Source: Eubacteriales bacterium (GTDB lineage: Bacteria > Bacillota > Clostridia > Oscillospirales > CAG-272). From it: DNA of 64,000 nucleotides. Positions 6,342-43,997 of this stretch are shown here, piece by piece. The translations under genes were made by a program, and so were the position numbers. Numbering within the stretch: position 1 is the stretch's first letter; each line of letters starts with the position of its first letter. The notes below the pieces were generated by a model that was not told the origin of the DNA, did not search any database, and saw nothing but the letters and a program-made list of their open reading frames with translations. Location of the stretch: the NCBI GenBank assembly GCA_045120465.1, contig JBGVEW010000022.1, forward strand, positions 12,782-76,781, read 5' to 3'.

Positions 6342-6698
6342 ATGTCAAACAATATTTTGGTCGATCTGTCTATGGAATTTTCCGTTGCCATCGTCAATTT
6401 ATGCGACAGCATCAAAGGCAAATCCATTCTTACCAATCAAATTCTCCGAAGCGGGACAAGCATCGGCGCAAACATCCACGAGGCAAACTATGCACAAACG
6501 CCTCCCGACTTTGTATCAAAGCTCCAAATCGCACTCAAGGAATGCTACGAAACCGAGTATTGGCTTACCCTCTTTTCAAGAACAGGAATGATTGATGAAA
6601 ATACGTATAAACAATTCAAAACCGATTGCGGGAAAATCCGTCGAATTTTGATTTCCTCCATCAATACCGCAAAGGAGCATCATCAGCGAAGGAAATAA
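6342..6698 (+). CDS. four-helix-bundle protein (23S rRNA IVS protein / Avd-like family)
   Basis: 118 codons after a GGAGGG SD. The SIGANIHEA and ECYETEYWL patterns are typical of this family. Confidence 0.7.
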   Translation: MSNNILVDLSMEFSVAIVNLCDSIKGKSILTNQILRSGTSIGANIHEANYAQTPPDFVSKLQIALKECYETEYWLTLFSRTGMIDENTYKQFKTDCGKIRRILISSINTAKEHHQRRK

Positions 6699-6702
6699 AA
6701 AG

Positions 6703-6745
6703 TTGGACACATCATTTGCGTGCAATTGCGCGATGATGTGTCCAA
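6703..6745. repeat. H palindrome copy 1 (bidirectional terminator-like)
   Basis: TTGGACACATCAT-17 nt-ATGATGTGTCCAA, with an A-run before and a T-run after. It is identical to copy 4 over all 43 nt. Confidence 0.85.
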
Positions 6746-6776
6746 TATTTTTTTATTTTTCAGGATGGTTTTCAAG

Positions 6777-6938
6777 GTGAAAAAGCTAAAAATGGCGCGA
6801 GGTATAACGCTCACTTTCGAAGAAGGCTGCAACAAATATTTAGAGAATTGTCGTCAAAGGAATTTAAGAGAAGGCACTATCGAGCATTACAGGCAGAGCT
6901 ATGTGCAAGTTTGCAAAGTTTTTTATGTGAACTCTTGA
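6777..6938 (+). pseudogene. tyrosine recombinase/integrase, N-terminal fragment
   Basis: VKKLKMARGITLTFEEGCNKYLENCRQRNLREGTI looks like the start of an integrase N-terminal domain. It stops after 53 codons and is a near-duplicate of 13951-14100. Confidence 0.55.
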
Positions 6939-8469: not shown

Positions 8470-8677
8470 CACAGAGATGATGGGTCTGATCGGAGTCGGG
8501 GTATGACCGTTGCTGTTGCAGTTGCTATCGAAGAGGCAAGCAAGTAATCCTTGATTTATAAGGCTTTTTGAGATTTACAAGACTTCATTGGGGCTTTGTA
8601 AAACTCAAATCGCACAAAATTGAACAATAAAAAGTTGGACACATCATTTTGGAGATTTCTCCATATGATGTGTCCAA
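8470..8677 (+). repeat. R module copy A (candidate structured non-coding repeat, internally deleted) ending in H2
   Basis: It aligns with copies B, C and D from CACAGAGATGATGGG to AATCCTTG and shares the tail with copy B. Confidence 0.7.
8635..8677. repeat. H palindrome copy 2
   Basis: TTGGACACATCAT-TTTGGAGATTTCTCCAT-ATGATGTGTCCAA, with a flanking A-run and T-run. It lies between convergent genes. Confidence 0.85.
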
Positions 8678-8694
8678 TATTTTTCGTTGCTTGA

Positions 8695-13835: not shown

Positions 13836-13876
13836 CTCGCGGCAAGCTATCATTTGTAATGCGAGCAACAAAAAAA

Positions 13877-13919
13877 TCGGACACATCATTTTGAGCTTTT
13901 GCTCTGGTGATGTGTCCAA
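13877..13919. repeat. H palindrome copy 3 (slightly degenerate arms)
   Basis: TCGGACACATCAT-TTTGAGCTTTTGCTCTG-GTGATGTGTCCAA, with an A-run before and a T-run after. Confidence 0.8.
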
Positions 13920-13950
13920 TATTTTTTTGTTTTCAAGGAGGATTTCCAAG

Positions 13951-14310
13951 GTGAAAAAGCTTAAAATGACTCGAGGCGTAACACTCACTTTTGAGGAGGG
14001 CTGCAACAAATATTTAGAGAATTGTCGGCAGAGAAATTTAAGGGAAGGTACTATCGGACACTACCGACAGAGCTACGTGCAATTCTATAAGTTCTTCGAC
14101 CCGAAGCTGCCTATTGAGGACATTGATGAGCAGACCTATAAGGACTACGTTTTGCATTTGAAATCGACTTTGGATAACGATGTTAGTTACATTTCAATAC
14201 TGAAAGGAACGTTATATTATGATTTATGCTTATTGCCGCGTCAGCACACAACATCAGAACGAAATATTTTCGTCTTTGTTAGTGTTACAATGGATGAAAG
14301 AGCAAAATGA
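13951..14310 (+). pseudogene. tyrosine recombinase/integrase, N-terminal fragment
   Basis: GTG follows an AAGGAGGA SD. VKKLKMTRGVTLTFEEGCNKYLENCRQRNLREGTIGHYRQSYVQFYKFF... stays integrase-like to about codon 80, then becomes unrelated sequence. Confidence 0.55.
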
Positions 14311-20057: not shown

Positions 20058-20450
20058 TGACCACATCATTTACGGCGACATCAAAACGCGATATAATGTT
20101 TTCAGGAAATACGCAAACGATGTGTTCGGCGCAAAGATTTTGCAGTTCAAAAGGCTTGTTTTATAAGGCTTTTTATCATTTTAATGCGTCTCAAAGCTCA
20201 ATACCGCACAGAAATGATGGGTCTCATCGGAGCCGGCAACAACCCCATGGTTGGAAACAGCCGCAGGCTGTTTTGATGACATGTTGCAGTCGCAGTTGCG
20301 ATCGAAGAAGCAAGCAAGTAATCCTTGCGGCGTAAGTTTTTTGAGCTTTGCAAGGCTTCATAGGGGCTTTGTAAAAATCGAATTGCACAAAATTGAACAA
20401 TAAAAAGTTGGACACATCATTTGCGTGCAATTGCGCGATGATGTGTCCAA
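20058..20450 (+). repeat. R module copy B (promoter + ~300-nt non-coding core + H4)
   Basis: It has TTTACG-17 nt-TATAAT (20069-20097), core 20204-20327 and a covarying hairpin at 20255-20273. The tail is shared with copy A. Confidence 0.7.
20408..20450. repeat. H palindrome copy 4
   Basis: Identical to copy 1 and lies between convergent genes. Confidence 0.85.
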
Positions 20451-20472
20451 CATTTTTATATCAATCATTCTT

Positions 20473-23441: not shown

Positions 23442-23575
23442 AATACACCTCTTTTTGTATTTTTTATCATTATACCACTAAAAAATAGCCTTTTCATTGG
23501 ATTTTTCACCATTCGTATTGTATTTTTCAACAAAGTATGGTACAATGAAACGCAATGCAAAGGAGGAACGGAATC

Positions 23576-24361: not shown

Positions 24362-24398
24362 GAAGAAAATTGAATTCACGGTTTCCGCACCTCCTCAC

Positions 24399-24761
24399 CA
24401 AGGCCATTTTCCTTCAAGCAATCGCAAACAACTTGAAAAAGGCTTATGGTGCAAAGATTTTTGACCATGTCATGATTTTCTCAACGCCCTTCCCCCTCGC
24501 CTGCCGCACAGAGATGATGGATCTGATCGGAGCTGGCAACAACCCCATGGTGAAACAACCGCAGGTTGTTTTGATGACAGGTCGCAGTAGCGGTTGCGAT
24601 CGAAGAGGCAAGCAAAGAATCCTTGCGGCGTAAGGCTTTTTGGGTACCTTTGCAGGGGCGAACAGTGTTCGTCCGCGGGCGGTCAATGACCGCCCCTACA
24701 AAAACAAAAAAATAAAAAGTTGGACACATCATAAACGTATTTTCGCTTATGATGTGTCCAA
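24399..24761 (+). repeat. R module copy C (promoter segment deleted) ending in H5
   Basis: Core 24504-24625 with a hairpin at 24553-24571. It has a nested TGCAGGGG...CCCCTACA insert at 24651-24700. It lacks the ~110 nt that carry the promoter in copy D. Confidence 0.7.
24720..24761. repeat. H palindrome copy 5
   Basis: TTGGACACATCAT-AAACGTATTTTCGCTT-ATGATGTGTCCAA. Confidence 0.85.
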
Positions 24762-25124
24762 TGTTTTTTATTCAAATGTATCATTCAAAAACACTCTAAA
24801 GACTTCGGCGGAAGCCTTGAAGATCCCGACGTCATCAAGCTCTGCGGTTGCTCGAGGAACAGTTATTATAAGTATAAGAAAGGCTTGAAAGCGGAGATCT
24901 TTATATAAACAGGCGGCTCATTCTGTTTCGATCGCCTCTGTTTGGAATTCTATAGGCTTTCAAATGATTCTTGGGGGATGCGTAAAATTTTGAAATCTCG
25001 ATTGTGCATTTGGCGGTTTCTATAATATGGGCATCTTACCGGGGAACTATTTAGGATATGTTTGCGGGACGGAATGAAAGGATGAATGTGGTAACGTGAT
25101 ACTTTGTTATGATGTGGTTTTCTA

Positions 25125-25153
25125 TTGACTATAATCTTTCGAAGTGATATAAT
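25125..25153 (+). promoter_or_regulatory. sigma-70/SigA-type promoter upstream of the RHS gene
   Basis: TTGACT-17 nt-TATAAT. Confidence 0.45.
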
Positions 25154-25243
25154 GAAATCAGGAGGTGAGTCCAATGGTTTTCGTGGGTTGATCTTAAAAG
25201 AGAGTATGATCAAAACAATGAACCAAACAGAAAGGAGATAATT

Positions 25244-28200
25244 GTGAAATCTATCATTAAGAAGAATAGCAAGAAAGCCCTGTCTATGTTTTTGTCGTTT
25301 TTGATGATCTTTTATTTGATACCTGTGAGCGTATTTGCCTTGGACAATTCCAAAGAAGGCTTTGACACTCCTCAAACCAATATTACCAAAGAAGAAACAG
25401 TATTTGAACTCGAAGACCGTCGTGAGGAATCGGTCAAGCACTTCCGTTTTGACGATGGAAGCATCATGGCAGTTCAATATGACAGTGCCGTTCACCGAAC
25501 TGACGAAAACGGTGTGTGGCGAGATATTGATAACCGCCTTGCCGAAACGTCAAATGATATTTCTACATCAGACGCTCGTGTCAAATTTGTGAAGAAAACG
25601 ACGGGCAATGAAACATTGTTTGCATTGCATGAGGATAATAAGAAGATTACGCTTAGCCTTGACGGTGCAAACAAGAAGGTTTACGGACAAATTTCCAACC
25701 ATTCAGACGATGTGGATGCAACACAATTGCAAAAGCTGATGAATTTGGAAAATTTATCTGCAAGCATTCTGTATCCGGACATTCTTGACGGTGTCGATCT
25801 CGAGTATGTTGTTGTAGCAAACAATATAAAAGAAAATATTATTGTAAAAGAACGCACCGATGCGTATGCCTACACGTTTACAATGAGACTAAATCACCTG
25901 ACAGCATCTATGGAAGACTCGGGACAGATCGTGTTGGTCGCAGGTGATGGCGAAGTTTGCTATGTAATTCCCTCCGGTATGATGATGGATGCTGTTGGCA
26001 ATATATCGTATGCTGTTGACTATGTCCTGACAGATCTTGGGAATGGAAGTTACAGTTTAGGAATAACCGCTGATGATGAATGGATCAACGCAGAAGAACG
26101 TGTATTCCCGGTTACGATTGATCCGCCGATTTATCCGGCAAGTCAATATGGTGCAATCGATTTAACAATTTCACAAAGCAATTCTTCTTTTAACGATTGT
26201 GCAAGTGAAAATTTGATTGTCAGCAACTCTTATATCAGTTATTGGAAAGCAAACGATTTGCCGACATTGCCTGTTTCTGCATATATTACCGAGGCTACGT
26301 TTCATGCGCAGGTAAGTATGGGTGTTAATGATACGGCATATGTTGCGGTATATGATGTTCTTACGGCGTGGGATGATTCTCTTACTTGGGCTGATGTGAA
26401 CAAGACAACGTCGCCGGAAGGAAAACTGGCAAATGATTACACAGATTATTGTAGAATTGCAGCAAATTATGAATTCGATTCGTATTCATGGAATATTACT
26501 CCGATTGCTAAGAAATGGTATGCCGTTGAAAATTACGGCCTTGCGCTAAAGAAGGCACCCGGATTCAGTTTTTCCGAAGATCTTACATTCTCCTCGAACA
26601 ACCGGGATGGAAGCGAACCAATCCTTTGCATATCCTACGTGGATATGAAGGGGCTGGAGGACTACTGGTCGTATAGTTCGCAAAGCAACGGTTTTGCGGG
26701 GAGCGGTTCGATCAATCATGCAACGGGTGAATTAACTTATGTGATTCAAACGTTGAGCACGCTTGATTCGTTACTTCCTTTTACGCCAACATTGGTGTAT
26801 CAATCCTCGTTGGCAAATAAAAATTACGTTTACGGCAATGTGCAAACGCCGTATGTGTATCCGCATACGCCTGTTGGCTTTAAACTGAATATCCAAGAAA
26901 CTTTATTGGAAAAGCAGTATTTTGATGCCGAAGGATATCCAAAAAACATGTTCATTTTGGCAGATGCGGACGGTACGGAACATTACTTTATGCCCACGGA
27001 TGATAGTAGCGTTTATCATGACGAGGATGGGCTGCTTTTGGAACTAAAGACAAGCGGCTCGCTCCTCACCATCACGGATAGCGGTCATAACGTACGTGCT
27101 TTCCAAAAAAACACATCGTTTTCGCAGTTGGGAATCAAATCCGCGTGGTATTTGGAGAGTATTACCGATCAGAGTGGTAATAAAATCAGTTTTGCCTTTG
27201 ATTCTGCCAAGAGACCTACTGCAGTACAATTGACGCCCAACGGATTTACCACACCGATTGAGCAGCTAAAACTCGGATACGGCAGTTCCGGTAGGCTGAA
27301 TATCGTTTATAATCCGCATTCCAACGAGGCGGCAATTCTGCGCTATAGCGGAAGTCTGCTGCAAACCTTGATTCGAGCACACGGAAATGATGACGCTGTT
27401 TGGGCAGATTGGCAGACTTATGCCAACGATTCCACAACTGTAAACGCAAATATTACAGTAGATGCGCAAGCCTCCTACACCTATAGCAGCGGTCTTTTAA
27501 CGAAAACGCGCAACGAGCTTTCGCAGTATGAACTGAACTATAGCTACACCAACAAAAAGGTTACACAAATCACAGAAAAAGCGGGAGCTACGGCGGCACC
27601 TACAACCGGGCAAAGTGTAACGCTTAGCTACAACGCAACAAATACAGTTTTGCGCACGAGTGGCTCCGATGATGCGCTTGGAACCTCGGATGATTTGCTT
27701 ACCACCTATACGTTTGACTCCTTTGGTAGAGCAATCAACGCTTATACAACCGACGCCGGCGGCACACAGCTATACGGTGCATCAAGCGGAGAGTACGATG
27801 AGGAGAATGAAAAATCCAAGAACAGCTTGGTGCGCAGTACACAGGTGCAGGAACAGTCTCCGAATTATCTGTTAAACGGCGGGTTTGAAACGCAAGGGGC
27901 TCCTATTCCGAATTGGGCAAGCGATACATCCGAGAGAGATTCGCTGGGAACGTCCCGAGAGGGGGCAAATCATGGAGAAGCTTGTGTGCGAATGAGCGTT
28001 GCCGCGCAGGATACAACGTATAATCAGTTATTGCAATACGTCAATCTACCGGCGGGTACATATACGCTTACGATGAGCTATAAAACCAAGTCTGCACAGG
28101 GCGCGGCGTTGCGTATGACCATGAGCTCTATATACGATACGCAAGGTGTATATAAAGACGTAGCACTCAATTCCGCAAACTTGGAAACAACCTATCAGCA

Positions 28201-31200
28201 GGCATCGCTACAGTTTACGGTGCCTCAGTTAAGCAGTACAAGCGATCTTTCTTGCACCGTTATGATCGAACTGATTCTGACCGATCCGTCAGACGGATAT
28301 GCAATCGTGTGTGTGGATGACCTGATGCTTTCCAAATCCACGGGTGCGATGGCATACGACATGGTGCAATTGGGGCACTTTGAGGATACAAATTACAATG
28401 TAGGGATTCCACAGGTATGGTCAATGGGGCCCAATGGCAATGTTGTGGCAAGTAACACGATATTTGGAACCGTGTTGAAACTTACACCGCCATCCGACTT
28501 TACTTCATCTGCTTCCGCTATGCAAACCGTATATTCTGCGAGCTCGACACTGAAATCGCAATATGCAAGCGGAAGCGTGCCGCTCAATCCAATCTACTTT
28601 ACCGTTTCCGGATGGGCAAAGAGCACGGCATCGTCTTGGAATGCTGACGCAACATTCGCGATTCACATTCACCTTTGGTATTATAACGGTGTCAAGGATA
28701 TCGAGGGAGAGTCGATTTACTTCAACTTCGATAGAGGAACAACGGATTGGCAGTTTATTAGCGGAGGTTTCGTAACCGATCCGAGCAAGGGATTACTTTC
28801 TAAAATTTGCATAGAGCCGGAATATGGCAAACACCCGGGAATTGCATATTTTGATAATATCAGCTTGGTGCAGGATAGCGACGGTACATCGTTCTATAAT
28901 TACACCACCACGGGATACGTTGGTTGCTATCAAAACGGCGGAGAAAAACTTTGGTACGAGTATGATGCCTCTGATCGCCTGCTAACAATGGCATCCAACT
29001 ACGGTTACTTTATCGATTATGATTACGATTCCAATCATCGATTGACAGGGGAGGAGTATTTTACCCACCAAGGCGTAATCGTAAGCCCGAAGGAAAGCGG
29101 CGGCAGCGGTTATCACATTGAGTTTAAAGACAGAGACGAAAACGGAGCTCCCGATATTTCATCGCGGTATTGTTTTACGTATCGCTACGATATGTATGGA
29201 ATTCATTACAAAACCATCTCCCGTGACACGCAAAGCGGCAGTCAAACCATTGCAAGCTCCACGAATTATGCCGATTCCGTTCCGTATTTCGGCGCGCTTG
29301 CCACTTACACCGACGAAGCAGGCGGAGTCACGCGGTATTTCTACGACGAGACAAACGGCTATCTGCTCGCGGTGGCATATCCCGACGGCAACGGTGTCAC
29401 CTACCGATACGACGCGATTGGAAATCTCATTGAGGTGCTTCCCGCAAAGCTGGTCAATACAGGAACCGAAGATACCCCCGTATATGACTACGAGCTTACC
29501 GAGCTGGGAACCAACGTGGATTACGCCTACGACAGCGTTACCAAGCGCCTGACATCCATCAACACCGCAAGCACGCAATATACGTTTGTGTATGATGCGT
29601 TTGGAAATACGACGAGTATCACCAACAATACATACACGTTGGCATCCTACACGTATCACCCAAATAACGGAAAATTGGCAACCATGACATACGGAAACGG
29701 TCTTTCGGTGCAATATCAGTACGATGAACTTGACAGAATTTCCGAAATATGGTATAATACAGGTGCAAGCGGTGCGTTTGAGTTGGCGTACTCTTACGGC
29801 TACGATTATGCGGGGCGTTTGTATTCCGTTGAGGACCACACGGGTGGCGGAAACAGCATGGTCAACGTCTATGACCCGTTGGGGCGGCTGGTGCAGAGCT
29901 ACAACTATGACCCCGAGAGCAAAAATATGGACCTCTTGGTGGATTATATCTACGACGAGGAATCTAAGCTGATTCAAACGGCGTACGATCTTGCTTACAA
30001 CTCTCCCACGGGCATCACCATCGATAATGCGGCGCAGTACGATTACCAATATAACGTACACGACCAATTGTATCGGGTTTATGCGCGATTTGGCAACGTT
30101 GACGGACGCATTGACATTCTCAAAAACAATCTTGGACGGTTGGATGGAAGAACCTATCTCTTTGAGATGTTCGGTGTTCCCGTGTACTATAACGAAGTTG
30201 CGTATGAGTATGATTCTTCCAATGCAAGAATCGAAAGCATGTCCGTCACGCGCAGCATGACTCCGATGGATACGGGCGTAACCACCGAGTATCACTTGAC
30301 GTACGATGCAAACGGTAATATTACGCATATCCGTGACAAAAATGGGAACCTGTTGCATCAATACGCCTATGATACGTTGGGGCAATTGATTCGAGAAACC
30401 AATTATTCGGATAGCAATACTTCCACCGTATATCAATATACGTATAATGCCGCGGGAAATCGCACAAGGCAAAAGATTTCTATTTTGTCAACGACGGCAA
30501 CGTATTCCGGTGACCGTTTAACCAAGTACGGTTCCAACAGCATCTCGTATGATGAGCTGGGCAACGTCATTCAATTTTCCGCAGGTCTCAATCGGACGCA
30601 ATATGAATGGCAGGGGCGCCTATTGGTGGGTAGCAATCAGCGCGTTTCAAGTGTAACGACCACAACTACAGTGGTAGCAGCCTACACCTACAACTCCGAA
30701 GGCATCCGCACGAGCAAAACGGTAAACGGCATCAAGCACGAGTATATCCTCGATGGCAGTTGCATCGTGGCAGAAAAATGGGTCGAAAACAACGTCGAAT
30801 ACATGATGGTATTCTTGTATGACGATGCGGGTTCTCCCATTGGCTTCCTGTATCGCACAAGTGCGTATGCGCGAGGCACATACGATGCGTATTTCTACGA
30901 GAAGAATTTCTTCGGTGACGTTATCGGCATCTACGATGAAAGCGGTTCTTGTGTTGCAAAATACAACTACAACGCATGGGGCGTTTGCACTGTTCAGACC
31001 AATGTCGGTGGCATCGCAACGCTGAATCCCATTCGCTATCGCGGCTACTACTACGATACGCATACAGGCTTGTATTACCTGCAAAGTCGGTACTATAATC
31101 CGGATTGGGGTAGATTCATTAGCATGGATGACCCCGGGGTGCTTGGAGCTTCTCCCGAAGCACTTACCGACAAAAACCTTTACATCTATTGCGATAATAA

Positions 31201-31738
31201 TCCCGTTATGCGAGTGGATGAAGATGGGGAGTTTTGGCATATTGTAGTTGGAGCGGCTGTTGGGCTGTTTGCAAGATATATATCAGATGTTGCTCAAAAT
31301 ATTGCCGAAAAGAAAAATGGTTTAGATGTATTAAAGCCAAGCTCTTCTGTGGTGGATTATATTGCTGCCAGTGCAAGTGGAGCTTTAGCTGCGACTAGTG
31401 TAGGTGTTGTCGGTCAGTTCGTAGGGAATATGCTAATAAGTTCAACATCATATGTGCTTGAGCAAGGGGCTTCTAATAAAAATGTAGATACAACAGAACT
31501 GATGCTTGAAACAGTTGCAGGTGGTGTCGCTGGTTTGATTGGAGGAAAAGGCGCAAACGGAGCAAAGTTGTATGGTGTTGCCAAAAATGCAAAATTGCAT
31601 TTGAAAACAGCCGTTGCTACGCACAATATAGCACATTATTCCGCTCAAATACGCGCAGTACCAGATGCAATTTTTAACGGTTTTGTAAAAACAAATTTAG
31701 CGAATTTGTCTTCGTACGGAATAACGAATTGGAGGTGA
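25244..31738 (+). CDS. RHS/YD-repeat polymorphic toxin (WapA-like), Sec signal peptide
   Basis: GTG follows an AAAGGAG SD. 2164 codons with many YD repeats. The RHS core end is RYRGYYYDTHTGLYYLQSRYYNPDWGRF...NNPVMRVDEDGE, followed by a 168-aa C-terminal domain. Confidence 0.9.
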   Translation: MKSIIKKNSKKALSMFLSFLMIFYLIPVSVFALDNSKEGFDTPQTNITKEETVFELEDRREESVKHFRFDDGSIMAVQYDSAVHRTDENGVWRDIDNRLAETSNDISTSDARVKFVKKTTGNETLFALHEDNKKITLSLDGANKKVYGQISNHSDDVDATQLQKLMNLENLSASILYPDILDGVDLEYVVVANNIKENIIVKERTDAYAYTFTMRLNHLTASMEDSGQIVLVAGDGEVCYVIPSGMMMDAVGNISYAVDYVLTDLGNGSYSLGITADDEWINAEERVFPVTIDPPIYPASQYGAIDLTISQSNSSFNDCASENLIVSNSYISYWKANDLPTLPVSAYITEATFHAQVSMGVNDTAYVAVYDVLTAWDDSLTWADVNKTTSPEGKLANDYTDYCRIAANYEFDSYSWNITPIAKKWYAVENYGLALKKAPGFSFSEDLTFSSNNRDGSEPILCISYVDMKGLEDYWSYSSQSNGFAGSGSINHATGELTYVIQTLSTLDSLLPFTPTLVYQSSLANKNYVYGNVQTPYVYPHTPVGFKLNIQETLLEKQYFDAEGYPKNMFILADADGTEHYFMPTDDSSVYHDEDGLLLELKTSGSLLTITDSGHNVRAFQKNTSFSQLGIKSAWYLESITDQSGNKISFAFDSAKRPTAVQLTPNGFTTPIEQLKLGYGSSGRLNIVYNPHSNEAAILRYSGSLLQTLIRAHGNDDAVWADWQTYANDSTTVNANITVDAQASYTYSSGLLTKTRNELSQYELNYSYTNKKVTQITEKAGATAAPTTGQSVTLSYNATNTVLRTSGSDDALGTSDDLLTTYTFDSFGRAINAYTTDAGGTQLYGASSGEYDEENEKSKNSLVRSTQVQEQSPNYLLNGGFETQGAPIPNWASDTSERDSLGTSREGANHGEACVRMSVAAQDTTYNQLLQYVNLPAGTYTLTMSYKTKSAQGAALRMTMSSIYDTQGVYKDVALNSANLETTYQQASLQFTVPQLSSTSDLSCTVMIELILTDPSDGYAIVCVDDLMLSKSTGAMAYDMVQLGHFEDTNYNVGIPQVWSMGPNGNVVASNTIFGTVLKLTPPSDFTSSASAMQTVYSASSTLKSQYASGSVPLNPIYFTVSGWAKSTASSWNADATFAIHIHLWYYNGVKDIEGESIYFNFDRGTTDWQFISGGFVTDPSKGLLSKICIEPEYGKHPGIAYFDNISLVQDSDGTSFYNYTTTGYVGCYQNGGEKLWYEYDASDRLLTMASNYGYFIDYDYDSNHRLTGEEYFTHQGVIVSPKESGGSGYHIEFKDRDENGAPDISSRYCFTYRYDMYGIHYKTISRDTQSGSQTIASSTNYADSVPYFGALATYTDEAGGVTRYFYDETNGYLLAVAYPDGNGVTYRYDAIGNLIEVLPAKLVNTGTEDTPVYDYELTELGTNVDYAYDSVTKRLTSINTASTQYTFVYDAFGNTTSITNNTYTLASYTYHPNNGKLATMTYGNGLSVQYQYDELDRISEIWYNTGASGAFELAYSYGYDYAGRLYSVEDHTGGGNSMVNVYDPLGRLVQSYNYDPESKNMDLLVDYIYDEESKLIQTAYDLAYNSPTGITIDNAAQYDYQYNVHDQLYRVYARFGNVDGRIDILKNNLGRLDGRTYLFEMFGVPVYYNEVAYEYDSSNARIESMSVTRSMTPMDTGVTTEYHLTYDANGNITHIRDKNGNLLHQYAYDTLGQLIRETNYSDSNTSTVYQYTYNAAGNRTRQKISILSTTATYSGDRLTKYGSNSISYDELGNVIQFSAGLNRTQYEWQGRLLVGSNQRVSSVTTTTTVVAAYTYNSEGIRTSKTVNGIKHEYILDGSCIVAEKWVENNVEYMMVFLYDDAGSPIGFLYRTSAYARGTYDAYFYEKNFFGDVIGIYDESGSCVAKYNYNAWGVCTVQTNVGGIATLNPIRYRGYYYDTHTGLYYLQSRYYNPDWGRFISMDDPGVLGASPEALTDKNLYIYCDNNPVMRVDEDGEFWHIVVGAAVGLFARYISDVAQNIAEKKNGLDVLKPSSSVVDYIAASASGALAATSVGVVGQFVGNMLISSTSYVLEQGASNKNVDTTELMLETVAGGVAGLIGGKGANGAKLYGVAKNAKLHLKTAVATHNIAHYSAQIRAVPDAIFNGFVKTNLANLSSYGITNWR

Positions 31739-31742
31739 TTGT

Positions 31743-32237
31743 ATGATATATATACCTATCGTTATTTTGGTTTCTGGAATCAATGGGGTTTTAGCATATG
31801 GGTTCTATAAAAGTACTCTCTCTCCAAAAGATTGTGTTAAGTTGCCGAATTTTTATTTCTATTTTGGGGTTGTGTTTTCTTTGCTTTTTATGCTCCCTAT
31901 TGTTGGACTTGTCGCTGGCGAAAAGTTTTTCTATAAAGAACCTCTATTTTGGCTGTTTTTGTGCGTTGTCGTGCTTTTAATACTAATGGCAATCACGCAG
32001 GTGAATTGGAGACTTTATATAGGTGATGAAAGTTTCGTGCATCGTAATATATTTGGTGTTCGTCGGGAATATCGATATGATGAAGTCAAATATATTAAGC
32101 CACTAAAGCGTCTTGGTGATACAATCATCAAAATCGATGGCAAATTGCTTCCCATTGTGATCGACAAGTATGCCTTTGGGTTAGAGGAGTTCATTCGCAA
32201 ATACAATCGATACAAATTAAGCAAAAGCCCCAAATAA
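31743..32237 (+). CDS. putative immunity protein 1 (polytopic membrane protein)
   Basis: It starts 4 nt after the RHS stop with GGAGGTGA inside the RHS 3' end. It has three hydrophobic helices. Confidence 0.6.
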   Translation: MIYIPIVILVSGINGVLAYGFYKSTLSPKDCVKLPNFYFYFGVVFSLLFMLPIVGLVAGEKFFYKEPLFWLFLCVVVLLILMAITQVNWRLYIGDESFVHRNIFGVRREYRYDEVKYIKPLKRLGDTIIKIDGKLLPIVIDKYAFGLEEFIRKYNRYKLSKSPK

Positions 32238-32252
32238 TGGGAAAAACCCAAA

Positions 32253-32371
32253 AACCCCGCCCCGACTCCCCGTGAGTCGGGGCACCTTTTCTCTTGACAA
32301 GGCTTTAAAAATATGGTATGATAAAAATGTAATCAGCACTCCTTCCACTACAACTCCGAAGGCATCCGCAC
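32253..32371 (+). repeat. cassette-junction repeat J1 (hairpin + promoter + rhs junction)
   Basis: Contains hairpin CCCCGACT/AGTCGGGG (32260-32282), TTGACA-17 nt-TATGAT (32294-32322) and then CTACAACTCCGAAGGCATCCGCAC. It is duplicated at 35005-35128. Confidence 0.7.
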
Positions 32372-32381
32372 GAGCAAAACG

Positions 32382-33380
32382 GTGAACGGCATCAAGCATG
32401 AGTATATCCTCGATGGCAGTTGCATCGTGGCAGAAAAATGGGTCGAAAACAACGTCGAATACATGATGGTATTCTTGTATGACGATGCGGGTTCTCCCAT
32501 TGGCTTCCTGTATCGCACAAGTGCGTATGCCAAAGGCGTGTACGATGCGTATTTTTACGAGAAGAATTTCTTCGGTGACGTTATCGGCATCTACGATGAA
32601 AGCGGTTCTTGTGTTGCAAAATACAACTACAACGCATGGGGCGTTTGCACCGTACAAACCAATGTCGGCGGCATCGCAACGCTGAATCCCATTCGCTATC
32701 GTGGCTACTACTACGATACGCATACGGGACTTTACTACCTGCAAAGTCGGTACTATAATCCGGATTGGGGTAGATTCATTAGTCCTGATTGCTACGTGTC
32801 CACAGGTCAGGGGCTCCTTGGAAACAACATGTACTTATACTGCAATAATAATCCGGTAATGTATGTGGATCCAAGTGGGGAGAGTTTTGTTGGTGTCATT
32901 ATTGCTGGTGGAATTGGTTTCTTTGAAATAGCAAAAGCTACAGTCATTGCTGTTGGTGTTGTAATTACAACCATTGGCGTTGGCACCGCTGTGCTTCCAC
33001 AAGCTAAGGAACAAGTTGGCTTTCTACAGTCATTGTTTACTGCGTCAGATTCTGAATTAGACGATACTGGTGTGGAGTCTGTAGATTATCCAATAAAGAA
33101 CCGCGATTATAAGCAGGCTTATTTCCCGGTGAATCCATATGATTTTCATCCCAATGGACTTAAAATGAAATTTTATGCGGGAACTACGAATGGCGCGATT
33201 ATCAAATGGTTCTCTCCAAATGGCGTAGTAGTGTTTGAATGGAATGAGGATTGGCAACACGGATCTCATTATCATGCATTATTTCCTGAGTATGACGGAA
33301 ACCATCAAAAGAACGGACCGCATTATATAGCAGGAGAACCTGTGCCGGAACCATTTAACACGATTTATTTTGGAGGATAA
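32382..33380 (+). CDS. orphan RHS C-terminal fragment with alternative toxin domain (CT2)
   Basis: 32348-32782 is near-identical to 30688-31122 of the main gene. It has its own DPSGE boundary and a distinct 165-aa C-terminus. The only start is a GTG without an SD. Confidence 0.65.
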   Translation: MNGIKHEYILDGSCIVAEKWVENNVEYMMVFLYDDAGSPIGFLYRTSAYAKGVYDAYFYEKNFFGDVIGIYDESGSCVAKYNYNAWGVCTVQTNVGGIATLNPIRYRGYYYDTHTGLYYLQSRYYNPDWGRFISPDCYVSTGQGLLGNNMYLYCNNNPVMYVDPSGESFVGVIIAGGIGFFEIAKATVIAVGVVITTIGVGTAVLPQAKEQVGFLQSLFTASDSELDDTGVESVDYPIKNRDYKQAYFPVNPYDFHPNGLKMKFYAGTTNGAIIKWFSPNGVVVFEWNEDWQHGSHYHALFPEYDGNHQKNGPHYIAGEPVPEPFNTIYFGG

Positions 33381-33382
33381 CT

Positions 33383-33802
33383 ATGCGCATAGATAAACAC
33401 AATCTCCATTTGTTGCACACCAACGAAGTGTATGTTCATGATGACATATATGTAGGCATGCAATATGATTACGAAGCGAATTGCTTGGTTGTTAGGTTGC
33501 TTTCCGAAGATGAGACAAGGCAAAAGACGATTACATTTTATAATGTTCTTGGCTATCAAATGATTGCTTGTGATTTTTGGGGGAGATCTCCTCATGTTTT
33601 AAGTTGGGTATATAATCTTGAGGAGAGGCACTCTTTCTTAAAAGCAATCAGTGAGGAATGCAATGAATACCTTAATGAAGATATCATTCTTTCACGCAAA
33701 ATCGGGCATGGAGTTGAATATATAGAAACAATGTTTCTCATGTCATCTGGCGATAGATTGGTTGTAGCATGTGAGTATATTGACTATTGTTGTGACCTAT
33801 AA
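33383..33802 (+). CDS. putative immunity protein 2 (soluble)
   Basis: ATG follows a GGAGGA SD, 2 nt after the CT2 stop. 139 codons. Confidence 0.6.
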   Translation: MRIDKHNLHLLHTNEVYVHDDIYVGMQYDYEANCLVVRLLSEDETRQKTITFYNVLGYQMIACDFWGRSPHVLSWVYNLEERHSFLKAISEECNEYLNEDIILSRKIGHGVEYIETMFLMSSGDRLVVACEYIDYCCDL

Positions 33803-33814
33803 ATCGAGCATGGA

Positions 33815-34561
33815 GTGCTTTCCCGAATACTACGATTTCAACAAAAAATAATCTCAAAAGGCAAAATCCAAGGGTTAAGTTATAACCCCGAGCGGGGACG
33901 GTTCATCAGCATGGATGACCCCGGGGTGCTTGGAGCTTCTCCCGAAGCACTTACCGACAAAAACCTTTACATCTATTGCGATCATAATCCCGTTATGCGA
34001 GTGGATGAAGATGGGGAGTTTTGGCATATCGTGGTTGGGGCAGTTATTGGTATCGCAGCAAAATATGTGTGTGATGTTGTGGATAATCTTATGGATGGAA
34101 AGTCTGGATTGGAGATTTTAACACCACATTCTTCTGTCGTAGATTATGTAGCTGCCGGAGCAAGTGGAGCACTTGCCGCTACGGGGGTAGGTTTGGTCGG
34201 ACAAATTGCAGGAAATGCGGCGATTTCATCGATACAAGAAACAACGCACCAGTTGTTTGACGATACTGCCGGGGTGAATCTTGTTGATATTGCCGTCAAT
34301 ACTGTAGGCGGTGCTATCAGCGGTGTCGCCGGTGGAGCCGGAGCAAGTCTTGGTAATTCTAAAACTGCTATGACATTAGGCAAGCAATTAACCAAAAGAG
34401 TTTTTGGAAGAGGGGAATGGGGAAAAGCTTTCTCCTATTACTTCAAGAATATGAAAAATGGTGCTGGTAAATCTATATATTCAGGATTGTTGCAAGGCAT
34501 CTTGCAAGCAACCGCGATGGGGTTTGGATATTCTTGTGTAACAGGGGGCATAATGAGATGA
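33815..34561 (+). CDS. orphan RHS C-terminal fragment with CT3 toxin domain (paralogue of CT1)
   Basis: 33901-34037 is near-identical to 31114-31250 (RFISMDDPGVLGASPEALTDKNLYIYCD.NPVMRVDEDGEFWHIVVGA). The translation start is uncertain. Confidence 0.6.
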   Translation: MLSRILRFQQKIISKGKIQGLSYNPERGRFISMDDPGVLGASPEALTDKNLYIYCDHNPVMRVDEDGEFWHIVVGAVIGIAAKYVCDVVDNLMDGKSGLEILTPHSSVVDYVAAGASGALAATGVGLVGQIAGNAAISSIQETTHQLFDDTAGVNLVDIAVNTVGGAISGVAGGAGASLGNSKTAMTLGKQLTKRVFGRGEWGKAFSYYFKNMKNGAGKSIYSGLLQGILQATAMGFGYSCVTGGIMR

Positions 34562-34983
34562 TTGCATATATATTGGTACTGCTCTTGACAAACGGATTAA
34601 CATACTGGTATATACGTAATATGATTTATACGATTATTTGGTGTGATCAAAAAGCAAGATCCTGCAATGTTAGAAATTTGCGAAAGCATCGCTCAAAATG
34701 GCAATTTTTGCGCATGAAATGTTTTGAAACATATACAAACACGCATCGCAAAAATTTCCGTTTTTGGATCAAAGTCAAAGATTGTTTTCTAATACTCGAA
34801 TTATTGGCGATGGTGTTATTATTGATTATCCATTTGATCGCACCGATAGATATTGCCAATTCTATATCAAGCATTCTTCTAATACACGCGTGGATAATTG
34901 CTGTTATGATGATTTTTCAATCTGACTTCCATCACAATACCAAGTACGACCGCATCCGCCTAAAAAACATTCACAAAAAATGA
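34558..34983 (+). CDS. putative immunity protein 3 (membrane protein)
   Basis: An ATGA start/stop overlap with CT3. It has hydrophobic helices. 141 codons. Confidence 0.55.
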   Translation: MIAYILVLLLTNGLTYWYIRNMIYTIIWCDQKARSCNVRNLRKHRSKWQFLRMKCFETYTNTHRKNFRFWIKVKDCFLILELLAMVLLLIIHLIAPIDIANSISSILLIHAWIIAVMMIFQSDFHHNTKYDRIRLKNIHKK

Positions 34984-35004
34984 AGTAAAAAAAGTATAAT
35001 TTGT

Positions 35005-35128
35005 AACCCCGCCCCGACTCCCCGTGAGTCGGGGCACCTTTTCTCTTGACACCCCCTCAAAAATATGGTATGATAAAAATGTAATCGGCGCTCCTTCCCT
35101 TCCCCTACAACTCCGAAGGCATCCGCAC
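35005..35128 (+). repeat. cassette-junction repeat J2
   Basis: The same hairpin (35012-35034), promoter TTGACA-17 nt-TATGAT (35046-35074) and rhs junction as J1. No rhs sequence follows it. Confidence 0.7.
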
Positions 35129-35170
35129 AAATTCAAAAGCAGTCAGCTACTCATATTGTATTACCATTCA

Positions 35171-35629
35171 ACCAATCGCAAACAACTTTTGAACTTATTC
35201 CAAAGGCCATTCACAAATACATCAAAACGTGGTATAATGCATTCAGCAAAACCGAAAACGATGTGTTCAGCGGAAAGGATTTTGCGATGCGAATAAAGTG
35301 AAAAAGGCTTATGGTGCAAAGATTTTTTACCATGTCATGATTTTCTCAATGCCCTTTCCCCTCGCCTGCCGCACAGAGATGATGGGACTCATCGGAGCCG
35401 GCAACAACCCCATGGTTGGAAACAGCCGACAGGTTGTTTTGATGACATGTTGCGGTCGCAGTTGCGATCGAGGAAGCAAGCAAATAATCCTTGATTTAAA
35501 AGGCTTTTTGAGTTCTTGTAGGGACGATTCACGAATCGTCCGCGGGTCATTCGTAAATAACCCCTACAAAATTACAAATAAAAAAGTTGGACACATCATT
35601 TTGGAGTTTTCTCCTTGTGATGTGTCCAA
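35171..35629 (+). repeat. R module copy D (promoter + core + nested insert + H6)
   Basis: It has TTCACA-17 nt-TATAAT with a TG extension (35210-35238), core 35369-35493, a hairpin at 35420-35439 and a nested TGTAGGG...CCCCTACA insert at 35517-35568. Confidence 0.7.
35587..35629. repeat. H palindrome copy 6
   Basis: TTGGACACATCAT-TTTGGAGTTTTCTCCTT-GTGATGTGTCCAA. It abuts the stop of the convergent GH20-like gene. Confidence 0.85.
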
Positions 35630-35633
35630 TTTT

Positions 35634-37550
35634 TTATAATTTCATGCCGCCGTCCCAGGCGAACTCCTCGCCCGTGGCTTCTACTGTGTGCATTTGGGTT
35701 TGCTGATTGAAATCTACAGAGAATTGCAGCAGTTCAACCGAAATATCTTCTTTTCCTTGAACGGGAACGTACACAATAGATTGAATGCTTTTGTCGGGGA
35801 AGGGGTTTTCGTATACGGTTTCGTAGGCGAACCCATCCCGATATTTTACGGGCATGGTTGAGTAAGAAATCTCTCTCAAGCCCGAATCCTTGTAATCTTC
35901 ATCATAATATTTGCAGGAGATATTGCCGCCGTATCTCACAGGGAGATCGGCAACGCTTCCGTCGTTGTATGTCACTCTGTAATGACCGAGCAAATACTCC
36001 GAATCCACAATGAAAACGCCGTCGTAAAAGATTTTGTAATTGATCTTGTGGGCTGTGGTGTGGACGATTTTGATGCCTGATCGGATTCCCTTATTCTTAA
36101 TGCGATACGCCTCGCGAAAGGCCTTAAAATGCTTTTCTTCACATGACATTTTTCCAAAACGCTCGCACCAAAATGCATAAGCCGTTGAAATCAGCGAAAA
36201 GAATTGCCCGTTGCGTTGCATATACTCTTCGCCAAAAGAACCCCAATTGGAAACAAAACCGCCTAAGATTCCCTGCTTTCTTCGTTGATCCCAGCTTTCG
36301 ACGTTGATCGCATTTAAGTTTGCAAAATAGGTTCGAAATCCCCGTGAGTGATATACCTTATCGTACTCCTTGTTAAACCGATAGTACCAATGCAGTATTT
36401 CCACGTCGCGCGAAATAAGGTCTCGACAAGGAAAGAGGGCGTGGACGTGTGCATCTCCTTTGCCGTGCCCCGCACCTCCGATCGGCTCACCGCTTCCGGG
36501 ATAATAGCGCGCGTTCAGCAGCTTTTCACCCCACATCATCGTGCGTATGCCCTTTTCCTTCAAAAAGGCGTGGATGCGGTTGACGTCGTTTGCATACAGA
36601 ACAGGAGCAGGTGTAGATCTGCACCGTTTGCATATCCTGATGGAATAGGCTTCATCGTGTCCGATGTTGATCCTTGCAGGCTCAAAAACCTCGATCACCT
36701 CTTCCAGAATGTCAAATACATATCGATAAACATCCGGATGATTGGGGCAATACGAATCCGGATAAGCGTCATTTTGCCGCTCACTCAGATGCGGATAAGC
36801 CATAACAAGATAATCGCAGTGGCTTAAGGTCGGGCATTCCGGAATCACTTCAAGCCCACGCGAACGACAGTATTCCGCAATGTTGCGGCACTCCTCTTTG
36901 GTGAGGATATCCCCTTCGGCATTATCGCAGTGGATCGAGTTTTTGGGCCATGAGTAGGTTTTATGCTGGATTTCATGCGCCCTGCCCGAATATTGATGCA
37001 CATCCTTACAAAACGCAGACCACACCTCATTGATGCGCGGATGTCTGTCATATTGCATGGCACCGCCGACTTCCAAAATGATACTGTTGTATTTTAATTC
37101 CGATAAAAGATCTACCGTTTTGTAAAAATCACGAAGACCTTTTCTGGATGGCAGATATGCACGGTATCCTCTTGTTGCAAACAATGGATAATCATACAAA
37201 AATCCACGCTGAAGCTCTCCCGACGCATACAACGCGCACAAGGTAGATGCCGCGTAAATAAACGCACGCGCGCTTGCCGCCCATACCGTTGTTACGGTAT
37301 CCACCATGATAGCATACTCTTCGTCGTTCGCCGAGGGGCATCTGTATTTTCCGATTCTGTTGATCACATCCTTGTTCAAGCCGAGAACAAATCTGATTTC
37401 TTTGACCGTTCCGTTTTTCAGTGGCGTATTGCTGTCAATGAGTCGGCTGATACAATCCGAATACTGCTCTTCATCAAAAAGACATACGGTATTCTTTCCC
37501 AAGGACAATTTCTTTTTTTCTTTTTTATAAAGCTTCAAATCAAAAAACAT
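35634..37550 (-). CDS. glycoside hydrolase family 20-like (beta-N-acetylhexosaminidase-like)
   Basis: The INIGHDEAY motif resembles the GH20 H-x-G-G-D-E motif. ATG 37550 is preferred because a GGAGGA SD lies 7 nt upstream; an alternative ATG is at 37571. Confidence 0.6.
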   Translation of the reverse strand: MFFDLKLYKKEKKKLSLGKNTVCLFDEEQYSDCISRLIDSNTPLKNGTVKEIRFVLGLNKDVINRIGKYRCPSANDEEYAIMVDTVTTVWAASARAFIYAASTLCALYASGELQRGFLYDYPLFATRGYRAYLPSRKGLRDFYKTVDLLSELKYNSIILEVGGAMQYDRHPRINEVWSAFCKDVHQYSGRAHEIQHKTYSWPKNSIHCDNAEGDILTKEECRNIAEYCRSRGLEVIPECPTLSHCDYLVMAYPHLSERQNDAYPDSYCPNHPDVYRYVFDILEEVIEVFEPARINIGHDEAYSIRICKRCRSTPAPVLYANDVNRIHAFLKEKGIRTMMWGEKLLNARYYPGSGEPIGGAGHGKGDAHVHALFPCRDLISRDVEILHWYYRFNKEYDKVYHSRGFRTYFANLNAINVESWDQRRKQGILGGFVSNWGSFGEEYMQRNGQFFSLISTAYAFWCERFGKMSCEEKHFKAFREAYRIKNKGIRSGIKIVHTTAHKINYKIFYDGVFIVDSEYLLGHYRVTYNDGSVADLPVRYGGNISCKYYDEDYKDSGLREISYSTMPVKYRDGFAYETVYENPFPDKSIQSIVYVPVQGKEDISVELLQFSVDFNQQTQMHTVEATGEEFAWDGGMKL

Positions 37551-43108: not shown

Positions 43109-43150
43109 TCGAAAAAATCATTCCGTTCGCAATCAAGCCAAAAAAACGGG

Positions 43151-43188
43151 GACACATCATTTTGGAGGTTTTCTCCACATGATGTGTC
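43151..43188. repeat. H palindrome copy 7 (shortened arms)
   Basis: GACACATCAT-TTTGGAGGTTTTCTCCAC-ATGATGTGTC, with an A-run before and a T-run after. It lies between convergent genes. Confidence 0.8.
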
Positions 43189-43193
43189 TTTTT

Positions 43194-43997
43194 TTATTTT
43201 GTTTTTCGATATTGAGAGGGCGTCATTCCTTCCCGCCGCTTGAACATCTTGATAAACTGCGAGGGGGTGGTGTATCCGCATTCGTAGCAAATTTCGAGAA
43301 TCGGGAGCGTGCTTTCCCTCAATAGGCTTTTCGCATGATCGATACGGGTGTCGTTTAACCAAGCCTTGAAGTTTTTTCCCACCTCCTTATGGAACAAACC
43401 GGAAAAATATGACGTACTGAACCCGCAAAGATGCGCAAGAGCCTCCATTGTGTAATTTTGCGACATATCGGAGAGTATGATCGTGATCGCTTTGGCAATC
43501 GGGGGGCTGATATAGGGGTTTTTATCGTCGATTCGTTCGCTGTATTCCAGCACGTCGCACAAAACGGCGTTCAAGGCGTGAAAAAGCTTCTTTTTGCGAT
43601 GGTTAGATGTTCCCACGTAGTCGGCGTAGAGCCTTTCTATGGCGCGGACGGTCTCCTCCGATGGGGAGAACCACGCGCGTGATGAAAACGAAAGCCTTGC
43701 GCGCAGCTCCGCATCAATGAAATTTTCGGAAAAGGAGATGATAAACGAGCCGGCATCTGCGGTGTCAAGAGACTCGATCTTGTGATAATCCTTGGGCGTC
43801 AGGAGGAAAAGGCAACTGTCGGATATTGGATAGATCGCGCCGTTGATGATGCATTTTCCTTGGCATTTTTGATAGAGAATGATTTCAAAATACTCGTGGC
43901 GGTGTGCGATGTAGCTCGTATCTCCGCTTTTTTTACGCACGTGAATATTTCCATCCTCCAGAAGATCACGGGAAAATTTATAGATATTCGTTTTCAA
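43194..43997 (-). CDS. AraC family transcriptional regulator
   Basis: A cupin-like N-terminus and a C-terminal HTH (ECGYTTPSQFIKMFKRREGMTPSQYR). Confidence 0.85.
   Translation of the reverse strand: MKTNIYKFSRDLLEDGNIHVRKKSGDTSYIAHRHEYFEIILYQKCQGKCIINGAIYPISDSCLFLLTPKDYHKIESLDTADAGSFIISFSENFIDAELRARLSFSSRAWFSPSEETVRAIERLYADYVGTSNHRKKKLFHALNAVLCDVLEYSERIDDKNPYISPPIAKAITIILSDMSQNYTMEALAHLCGFSTSYFSGLFHKEVGKNFKAWLNDTRIDHAKSLLRESTLPILEICYECGYTTPSQFIKMFKRREGMTPSQYRKTK

What the first reader, a model, noticed from the sequence alone, without database searches (positions are those of the whole stretch)
24399..35629. The entire RHS toxin island is bracketed by the two most similar R modules in direct orientation
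R module C (24399-24761) lies immediately upstream of the RHS locus and R module D (35171-35629) immediately downstream. They have the same orientation and belong to the same subfamily: a shared 5' extension AAAAAGGCTTATGGTGCAAAGATTTT...CCCCTCGCCTGCCGCACAG and the same nested insert type. Each ends in an H palindrome. The interval appears AT-richer than the flanks. Homologous recombination between C and D would delete, or circularise, the whole toxin/immunity array as one ~10.8-kb unit. Alternatively the island may have arrived as a unit between duplicated R/H ends.
Basis: inference. Interest (0 to 1): 0.6.

Follow-up and report, generated by a model that had tools for sequence, protein, structure and literature searches.

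The report
RHS toxin island between integration-site scars
The two repeats around the RHS toxin island are leftover docking sites, copies of the tail of a conserved gene (GGGtGRT), left by a family of integrating mobile elements; the toxin island is most likely the cargo of one decayed element in a stack of such elements, an ordinary kind of genomic island at a little-known address.

Summary
R modules C (24399-24768) and D (35171-35640) are direct repeats, each ends in the H hairpin, and they bracket an AT-richer RHS island (43.7% GC against 50.2% for the genome).

"Most similar pair" is only partly true. C and D share a 96%-identical 77-nt arm and the longest alignment (346 nt, 81.5%). In the core, B-D is closer. 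In H, C pairs with X2 and D pairs with A.

- **What R is:** its core is a copy of the last ~95 nt of the GGGtGRT gene (PF14057), which lies intact 16 kb upstream. Six copies, all on one contig and one strand, cut ~40 kb into cassettes.
- **How it got there:** a relative carries an intact 9.2-kb element at this gene tail, flanked by a perfect 98-bp repeat in the order core-spacer-H-integrase. All nine close integrase homologues, across eight families, sit right behind a GGGtGRT gene or a copy of its 3' end.
- **Decay in this genome:** only integrase and serine-recombinase stubs remain. One stub lies directly after C's hairpin.
- **Variation:** relatives carry different cargo at both junctions, and none has this RHS locus.

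Best reading: a tandem stack of decayed integrative elements, with the RHS island as one cargo.

The parts
24399..24434 (+). Left junction of module C. It includes the 16-mer CAATCGCAAACAACTT (24419-24434) that recurs at 35173-35188.
   Evidence: The same junction follows the AraC gene in relative G070.
24435..24511 (+). Precore of C. This is the right arm of the preceding His_Phos-EamA-GH30-AraC cassette.
   Evidence: 96% identical to D's precore and to the R module of G070.
24512..24619 (+). Core of C. It is a degenerate copy of the last ~95 nt of the GGGtGRT gene (EMMDLIGAGNNPMV / VAVAVAIEEASK), interrupted by a 28-nt hairpin insert.
   Evidence: The changes between copies are synonymous-type.
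24620..24711 (+). Spacer of C, with a nested mini-palindrome.
   Evidence: Matches to the corresponding piece of D's spacer are dispersed in relatives.
24712..24768 (.). H hairpin of C (stem 24722-24759). It looks like a bidirectional terminator.
   Evidence: The loop is 97% like X2's and of the same type as the H that precedes the intact integrase in G015.
24780..24908 (+). 3' remnant of a small serine recombinase (...DFGGSLEDPDVIKLCGCSRNSYYKYKKGLKAEIFI*).
   Evidence: It is 71% aa-identical to residues 189-233 of the intact 236-aa resolvase of G005:C23 (Pfam PF00239). Nucleotide matches are 78-81%.
25244..31738 (+). rhs gene, 2164 aa. It has a Sec-type signal, RHS repeats and a C-terminal toxin after ...GRFISMDDPGVL.
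31743..32237 (+). Candidate membrane immunity protein, 164 aa.
   Evidence: weak DUF6560 match.
32253..34983 (+). Two orphan rhs C-terminal/immunity modules (32382-33380 with 33383-33802; 33815-34561 with 34534-34983). A hairpin-plus-promoter junction unit precedes them.
   Evidence: Repeats D1, D2 and D11. Translations.
35005..35128 (+). Second copy of the junction unit, an empty slot.
   Evidence: Repeats D11 and D13.
35173..35375 (+). Right arm of the RHS cassette: the 16-mer, the 5' extension with a near-consensus promoter (35210-35238), and the precore.
   Evidence: The same arm (ext5 and precore hits) precedes cores with different cargo in G070, G005:C197 and G005:C23; B and G015:C22 share the extension only.
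35376..35487 (+). Core of D. It is a GGGtGRT-tail copy with a 29-nt hairpin insert.
35488..35640 (+). Spacer and H hairpin of D (stem 35589-35626). This is the left end of the next cassette (GH20...).
   Evidence: The D-like R plus GH20 is conserved at 85-88% in G005.
20060..20461 (+). R module B: 5' extension, core with hairpin insert, spacer and H.
8470..8688 (+). R module A: core with an internal deletion, spacer and H.
6694..6930 (+). Lone H1 followed by a tyrosine-integrase N-terminal fragment.
13868..14270 (+). Lone H3, an integrase N-terminal fragment (Phage_int_SAM_5), and a serine-recombinase N-terminal stub (MIYAYCRVSTQHQNE).
43140..43198 (.). Last H hairpin of the array.

Best explanation
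The R modules are attachment-site scars. A family of tyrosine-integrase elements inserts into the last ~95 nt of the GGGtGRT gene (intact copy at contig C22 7885-8886, 16 kb upstream of C). Each element brings a replacement copy of the gene tail (the R core).

Each element also has a left arm made of a spacer, the H hairpin and the integrase. Its right arm is a promoter-bearing extension plus the precore.

Repeated insertions into the same core, followed by loss of the integration genes, built a head-to-tail stack of at least seven cassettes over ~47 kb. Most cassettes carry sugar-utilisation genes.

The RHS island is the cargo of one such decayed element. Its order is core C, spacer, H, a deletion that removed the integrase and the 5' part of the serine recombinase, the serine-recombinase 3' stub, the rhs/immunity/orphan array, the right arm, and core D.

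**Shown:** the origin of R from the gene tail; the architecture and target specificity of the element family; recombinase stubs in this array; and cassette turnover and sharing between species.

**Inferred:** that the RHS genes arrived inside the element rather than being added later; and that the unit could now move only with an integrase supplied in trans or by rare homologous recombination.
For: 1. **R comes from the gene tail.** The R core aligns to the 3' end of the intact GGGtGRT gene (Pfam PF14057, E=1e-190). Differences between copies are synonymous-type, giving VAVAVAIEEASK* in X1, A, B and D.
2. **Clustering.** All six R copies lie on one strand of one contig, and none lies on the other 120 contigs.
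3. **Intact element.** G045 has a 9.2-kb element flanked by a perfect 98-bp repeat of the gene tail. Its order is core-spacer-H-integrase...SprT-like-serine recombinase-cargo-core-native terminator.
4. **Target specificity.** Nine of nine integrase homologues at 58% identity or more (G015, G045 and seven other genomes, eight families) sit directly 3' of a GGGtGRT gene or core, most with H between them. Homologues at 43% or less do not.
5. **Stubs in this genome.** Integrase N-terminal fragments follow H1 and H3, and a serine-recombinase 3' stub follows C's H.
6. **Variable cargo.** After the same AraC junction, G070 has one R module and different cargo. G005 has a recombinase stub, H and other cargo. 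The D-like R plus GH20 of G005 is preceded by other cargo.
7. **Breakpoint in the core.** Similarity between C and the G070 module is 96% through precore and hairpin insert, then falls to 79% and 51%. The exchange point therefore lies inside the core.
8. **Sharing between species.** Integrase-less cassettes are 96-98.7% identical between species whose aspS/thiI genes are 76-86% identical.
9. **Foreign composition.** Island GC is 43.7% against 50.2% for the genome, and there is no close RHS homologue in 78 genus genomes.
Against: - No intact element carrying an rhs gene was found. RHS relatives elsewhere (47% aa identity or less) have no R, H or integrase nearby.
- The cores of C and D carry a hairpin insert with stop codons and are only 82-86% alike, so they may no longer be functional sites.
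- C lacks the 5' extension that its G070 counterpart has, which requires an extra deletion step.
- H1 and H3 have no core upstream, so not every boundary fits the simple model.
- The relatives are metagenome-assembled genomes. The 15.6-kb G070 contig could be mis-binned.
- No read data could be examined for excision junctions.
Confidence: 0.7

Rival explanations
1. The R/H-bounded cassette came first, and the RHS genes were added or swapped into it later by an unrelated event. Examples would be homologous replacement of older cargo, or rhs-driven recombination. On this reading the repeats do not record the arrival of the toxin genes.
For: - RHS homologues in other genomes are not linked to this element family.
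- The island has its own internal repeat system (D1, D2, D11).
- The integrase and most of the serine recombinase are deleted right at the RHS left border. That deletion could be the scar of such a replacement.
Against: - The RHS block lies exactly where cargo lies in intact elements, downstream of the serine recombinase and upstream of the right arm.
- No remnant of older cargo is visible between 24908 and 35173.
Confidence: 0.2
2. C and D act today as substrates for RecA-type homologous recombination, which deletes or circularises the 10.8-kb toxin/immunity unit.
For: - The repeats are direct, with a 346-nt alignment that includes a 77-nt stretch at 96%.
- An R-to-R block difference of 21.6 kb exists between G000 and G005 elsewhere in the array, with the junction inside R sequence.
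Against: - Overall identity is 81.5% and the longest exact tracts are 29 and 28 nt. From general knowledge of homologous recombination, this is poor substrate.
- No AraC-R-GH20 junction was found in 78 genus genomes.
- The G005 junction looks like a short-homology deletion, not clean homologous exchange.
Confidence: 0.1
3. R modules are functional small transcription units, running from a promoter in the 5' extension to the H terminator. They would have been duplicated because they encode a regulatory RNA or peptide, not as recombination scars.
For: - A near-consensus promoter (TTCACA-17-TATAAT with TG) lies at 35210-35238, and the terminator-like H lies ~350 nt downstream.
- The same extension is present in B, G070, G005 and G015 modules.
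Against: - There is no Rfam match.
- C, A, X1 and X2 lack the promoter segment.
- The long reading frames in R are not conserved between copies.
- The core is demonstrably the tail of a protein gene and is duplicated perfectly around an intact element.
Confidence: 0.03

Closest known systems
Tandem accretion of ICEs/IMEs and cis-mobilizable elements (CIMEs) at the 3' end of a protein gene, e.g. ICESt1/CIME at fda in Streptococcus thermophilus (reviewed in PMC5704250)
   Same: - Site-specific insertion into a gene's 3' end.
- The element supplies a replacement gene tail.
- Direct att repeats separate the stacked elements.
- Most units have lost their integration genes.
- A tyrosine integrase lies next to one att site in intact members.
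   Different: - The target is the GGGtGRT gene tail. No paper among the 13 that mention this family deals with integration, judging by the titles and abstract openings of the 10 listed.
- No relaxase or conjugation gene was recognised in the one intact 9.2-kb element examined.
- The att-proximal arm carries a strongly conserved hairpin (H).
- Cargo is mostly glycoside hydrolases, plus one RHS toxin array.
Dehalococcoides ssrA-specific genomic islands (PMC3146451)
   Same: - Many tandem islands lie within 100 kb downstream of one target gene.
- Each island is bounded by a direct repeat of the target's 3' end.
- The integration module lies next to attL.
- Some islands lack the module and were interpreted as cis-mobilizable.
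- Cargo is strain-specific.
   Different: - There the target is tmRNA with a 20-bp repeat and a large serine recombinase.
- Here the target is a protein gene with a ~95-bp repeat, and the machinery is a tyrosine integrase plus a small resolvase-type serine recombinase.
Rhs / WapA-type polymorphic toxin loci with orphan C-terminal/immunity modules
   Same: - A large RHS-repeat protein with a variable C-terminal toxin and a downstream immunity gene.
- Orphan toxin/immunity modules that share homology handles with the main gene.
   Different: That system explains the inside of the island only. It does not explain the R/H repeats that bracket it.
Integrons
   Same: A head-to-tail row of cassettes separated by recombination sites next to a fixed chromosomal point.
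   Different: - There is no IntI-type integrase and no attC fold.
- The sites derive from the target gene.
- Units brought their own integrases, as shown by stubs after H1 and H3 and by three stubs in G005.
- Cassettes are multi-gene with their own promoters.

Membership tests
Site-specific integrative element at the 3' end of a gene (tyrosine integrase) | Direct repeats that duplicate the 3' end of the target gene at both element ends | tested here: met
   C and D cores align to the GGGtGRT tail. A perfect 98-bp repeat flanks the intact element in G045.
Site-specific integrative element at the 3' end of a gene (tyrosine integrase) | Integrase gene next to one att site | tested here: not met
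   The RHS cassette has none. Only a serine-recombinase 3' stub remains. Integrase stubs occur in other cassettes, and intact genes occur in relatives.
Site-specific integrative element at the 3' end of a gene (tyrosine integrase) | Integrase family consistently linked to the same target | tested here: met
   9 of 9 homologues at 58% identity or more lie directly behind a GGGtGRT gene or core, across eight families.
Site-specific integrative element at the 3' end of a gene (tyrosine integrase) | Excision to a circle, with an empty site detectable | not testable with these tools
Two metagenome pattern scans gave 0 hits.
CIME (cis-mobilizable element) | Lacks integration and transfer genes but keeps attL and attR | tested here: inconclusive
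   Both cores are present, but each is interrupted by a 28-29-nt hairpin insert and they are 82-86% alike. Whether they still function is unknown.
CIME (cis-mobilizable element) | Can be moved by a related element's integrase | not testable with these tools
   The only evidence is indirect. Integrase-less neighbour cassettes are 96-98.7% identical across species whose housekeeping genes are 76-86% identical.
Integron | IntI integrase with attI, and cassettes ending in attC | tested here: not met
   There is no IntI. The sites are gene-tail copies, and units carried their own integrases.
REP/MITE-type dispersed repeat | Many copies dispersed over the genome in both orientations | tested here: not met
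   All R copies are on one contig and one strand.
Rhs polymorphic toxin locus | RHS repeats, a variable C-terminal domain after a conserved core end, an adjacent immunity gene and orphan modules | tested here: met
   PF05593 at E=1e-23. The ...GRFISMDDPGVL boundary recurs in orphan 33815-34561; orphan 32382-33380 shares the upstream RHS core. Repeats D1 and D2.

The most novel reading that the evidence does not exclude
The GGGtGRT gene tail may be a living, multi-species cassette-exchange platform of gut and rumen Clostridia. Integrase-less cassettes (CAZyme sets, and here an RHS toxin array) would be excised, shuffled and passed between species by integrases supplied in trans from incoming elements or phages. 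The promoter-to-hairpin unit inside each R module might make an RNA that controls the reaction.
Probability: 0.2. Interest if true: 0.65.

Novelty: new member of a known kind. Interest (0 to 1): 0.42.

Why it matters
The result explains a puzzling repeat family as the footprint of one integrase family with a new target, the GGGtGRT gene tail. This site is a hot spot where anaerobic Clostridia collect and exchange sugar-utilisation genes and, in this genome, an interbacterial toxin system.

Integrase-less cassettes that are near-identical between species with 76-86% housekeeping identity suggest the platform is still active at the community level. For annotation, it gives a simple rule: copies of the GGGtGRT tail followed by the GGACACATCAT hairpin mark island boundaries in this order.

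Tried and rejected
- Rfam scan of the window: no family.
- Exact-protein look-ups of both flanking genes (AraC, GH20): nothing on record.
- Two exact-pattern scans of metagenome contigs (AraC 3' end; rhs junction hairpin): 0 hits.
- Search for an rhs-carrying intact element through RHS N-terminal relatives in genome contigs. Seven loci were found at 47% aa identity or less, and none has R, H, integrase or resolvase nearby.
- Phage records: no integrase closer than 30%.
- Dispersed repeat (MITE or REP) reading of R: rejected, because all copies sit at one locus on one strand and derive from a gene tail.
- My first polarity guess, that R-H lies at the right end of each element: rejected after the G045 element showed core-spacer-H-integrase at the left end.
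- Coding reading of the ~112-124-aa frames across B, C and D: rejected, because they are not conserved between copies.
Full report
**1. Observation.**

C (24399-24768) and D (35171-35640) are real direct repeats. With A (about 8470-8688) and B (about 20060-20461) they form one family.

blastn and nhmmer against the whole 2.59-Mb, 121-contig assembly (95% complete) found two more copies just upstream of the window, at contig C22 ~8790-9140 (X1) and ~11498-11666 (X2). No copy lies on any other contig, and all copies are on the + strand.

Nine of the ten H hairpins in the genome lie within 47 kb of this contig.

The island between C and D has 43.7% GC against 50.2% for the genome. Only 2.2% of same-size windows are as low.

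"Most similar pair" holds for the 77-nt precore (96%) and for total alignment (346 nt, 81.5%). It does not hold segment by segment:

| Segment | C-D | Closer pair |
|---|---|---|
| Core-left | 86% | B-D 95% |
| Core-right | 82% | B-D 92% |
| Spacer | 61% | A-B 84% |
| H hairpin | 77% | C-X2 97%, A-D 92% |

**2. What R is.**

Six-frame translation showed that X1 is the true end of an intact 332-aa gene...AHVEMMGLIGAGNNPMVGMTVAVAVAIEEASK*. The gene is a full-length GGGtGRT protein (PF14057, E=1e-190).

A, B, C and D contain the same tail. Changes are synonymous-type, with VAVAVAIEEASK kept in A, B and D. In B, C and D a 28-29-nt hairpin insert carrying stop codons interrupts it.

X2 supplies the last residues and the stop codon of a 719-aa ORF.

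R is therefore a displaced copy of a gene tail, followed by a spacer and the H hairpin. H has a 12-bp stem that hardly varies (eight of its pairs are invariant), a variable inner stem with some compensatory changes, and flanking A and T runs.

**3. Mechanism, from relatives.**

- **Integrase stubs in this genome.** Directly after the lone hairpins H1 and H3 lie N-terminal fragments of a tyrosine integrase.
- **G015.** The syntenic GGGtGRT gene is followed by H and an intact 313-aa integrase.
- **G045.** A 9.2-kb element is flanked by a perfect 98-bp repeat, the last 94 nt of the gene plus AAAA. Its order is gene-core-spacer-H-integrase-small ORFs-SprT-like-serine recombinase-cargo-core-native terminator.
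- **Order-wide survey.** In 301 genomes of the order, every integrase homologue at 58% identity or more lies directly behind a GGGtGRT gene or core, usually with H between them. That is seven genomes plus G015 and G045, across eight families. Homologues at 43% or less do not.
- **A predicted viral contig.** One IMG/VR contig carries two such core-integrase units in tandem next to phage-like genes.

The R core is therefore the attachment site, and H with the integrase forms the element's left arm. The 5' extension plus precore, present with different cargo upstream in D, G070, G005:C197 and G005:C23 (B and G015:C22 share the extension only), is the right arm.

**4. The RHS island in this frame.**

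Twelve nucleotides after C's hairpin begins the 3' end of a small serine recombinase...DFGGSLEDPDVIKLCGCSRNSYYKYKKGLKAEIFI*. It is 71% identical to residues 189-233 of an intact 236-aa resolvase in G005.

Next come, in order:
- the Sec-signal RHS gene (25244-31738);
- an immunity candidate;
- two orphan toxin/immunity modules;
- an empty junction unit;
- the right arm (35173-35375);
- core D.

This is the cargo position of intact elements. The integrase and the 5' part of the recombinase have been deleted. No cognate integrase or resolvase remains anywhere in the genome.

**5. Empty-site and alternative-cargo test.**

- **G070.** A contig is 97.4% identical to 21781-24434. It has the same left junction, then a single R module with a D-type extension, a C-type precore (96%) and hairpin insert (96%), but a different core-right (79%) and spacer (51%). 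Unrelated cargo follows. The similarity breaks inside the core, as expected for exchange at an att site.
- **G005.** The same AraC cassette (96%) is followed by a recombinase stub, H and other genes. The D-like R plus GH20 (85-88%) is preceded by H, an integrase stub and unrelated genes.
- **G005, a larger difference.** G005 also joins the 719-aa-ORF cassette (98.7%) directly to the B-hairpin/AraC cassette. G000 has 21.6 kb between them, and the junction lies inside R sequence.
- **Housekeeping comparison.** aspS/thiI are only 86% (G005) and 76% (G070) identical to G000. These integrase-less cassettes were therefore shared recently between species.
- **The RHS locus itself.** None of 78 genus genomes has a close copy of it. 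RHS relatives elsewhere (47% aa identity or less) are not linked to R, H or the integrase.

**6. Verdict.**

The repeats are scars of a tandemly accreted stack of GGGtGRT-tail-specific integrative elements. The RHS island is most likely the cargo of one decayed, CIME-like unit (confidence 0.7).

Homologous C×D deletion is possible but weakly supported, because exact tracts are at most 29 nt and no recombinant was seen.

The closest described systems are ICE/IME/CIME accretion at gene 3' ends (PMC5704250) and the Dehalococcoides ssrA island arrays (PMC3146451).

Two earlier notes of this scan reached the same kind of reading for GGGtGRT-tail islands in other genomes. I reached mine independently from the data above.

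Caveat: the relatives are metagenome-assembled genomes, and single contigs may be mis-binned.

Noticed in passing
window 24640-24700 and 35505-35570: The spacers of C and D carry a mini-palindrome (TTGTAGGGACGATTCACGAATCGTCCGCGGG...CCCCTACAA). In this genome it occurs only here. In relatives G020, G006, G036 and G014, 26-31-nt matches are scattered over many contigs, like a REP- or MITE-type element.
   Followed up: partly
window 35210-35238 (also B, 20045-20100): The 5' extension of R holds a near-consensus promoter (TTCACA-17-TATAAT with TG) pointing into the core and towards H. A full R module is therefore a promoter-to-terminator unit of about 350 nt. Its function is unknown.
   Followed up: partly
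window 24550-24580, 35418-35448, 20252-20282: A 28-29-nt hairpin (AAACAGCCGCAGGCTGTTTTGATGACAT) is inserted in the middle of the att core of B, C, D and the G070 module. It puts stop codons in the gene-tail frame. The G070 module has a further 137-nt insert in the core.
   Followed up: partly
G005:C197 7300-13626 versus contig C22 9151-11513 and 33173-37145: Two integrase-less cassettes are adjacent in G005 but 21.6 kb apart in this genome. They are 96-98.7% identical, although housekeeping genes are 86% identical. This is a block gain or loss at R sequences plus recent inter-species sharing.
   Followed up: yes
L079 (IMG/VR UViG_3300018878_002442) 3175-12184: A predicted viral contig carries two tandem units of GGGtGRT-tail core plus integrase (77% and 69% identity). 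It also carries a resolvase 78% identical to the one in G005, and sits next to a holin-like gene and a large tail-fibre-like gene.
   Followed up: partly
contig C22 8890-9085 (upstream of the window): Between the stop codon of the intact GGGtGRT gene and its H hairpin lies a ~190-nt spacer with several copies of CATGAATTG-containing short repeats. No other R module has this.
   Followed up: no
contig C69 10112-10148: This is the only H-like hairpin outside the array (GGACACGTCAT variant). It sits right after an AraC-family gene.
   Followed up: partly
contig C22 9369-11528 (upstream of the window): A 719-aa ORF takes its last residues (…VIEEASK) and its stop codon from R copy X2. In G005 the same gene ends differently (…TVIER) because of the R-to-R junction.
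   Followed up: partly
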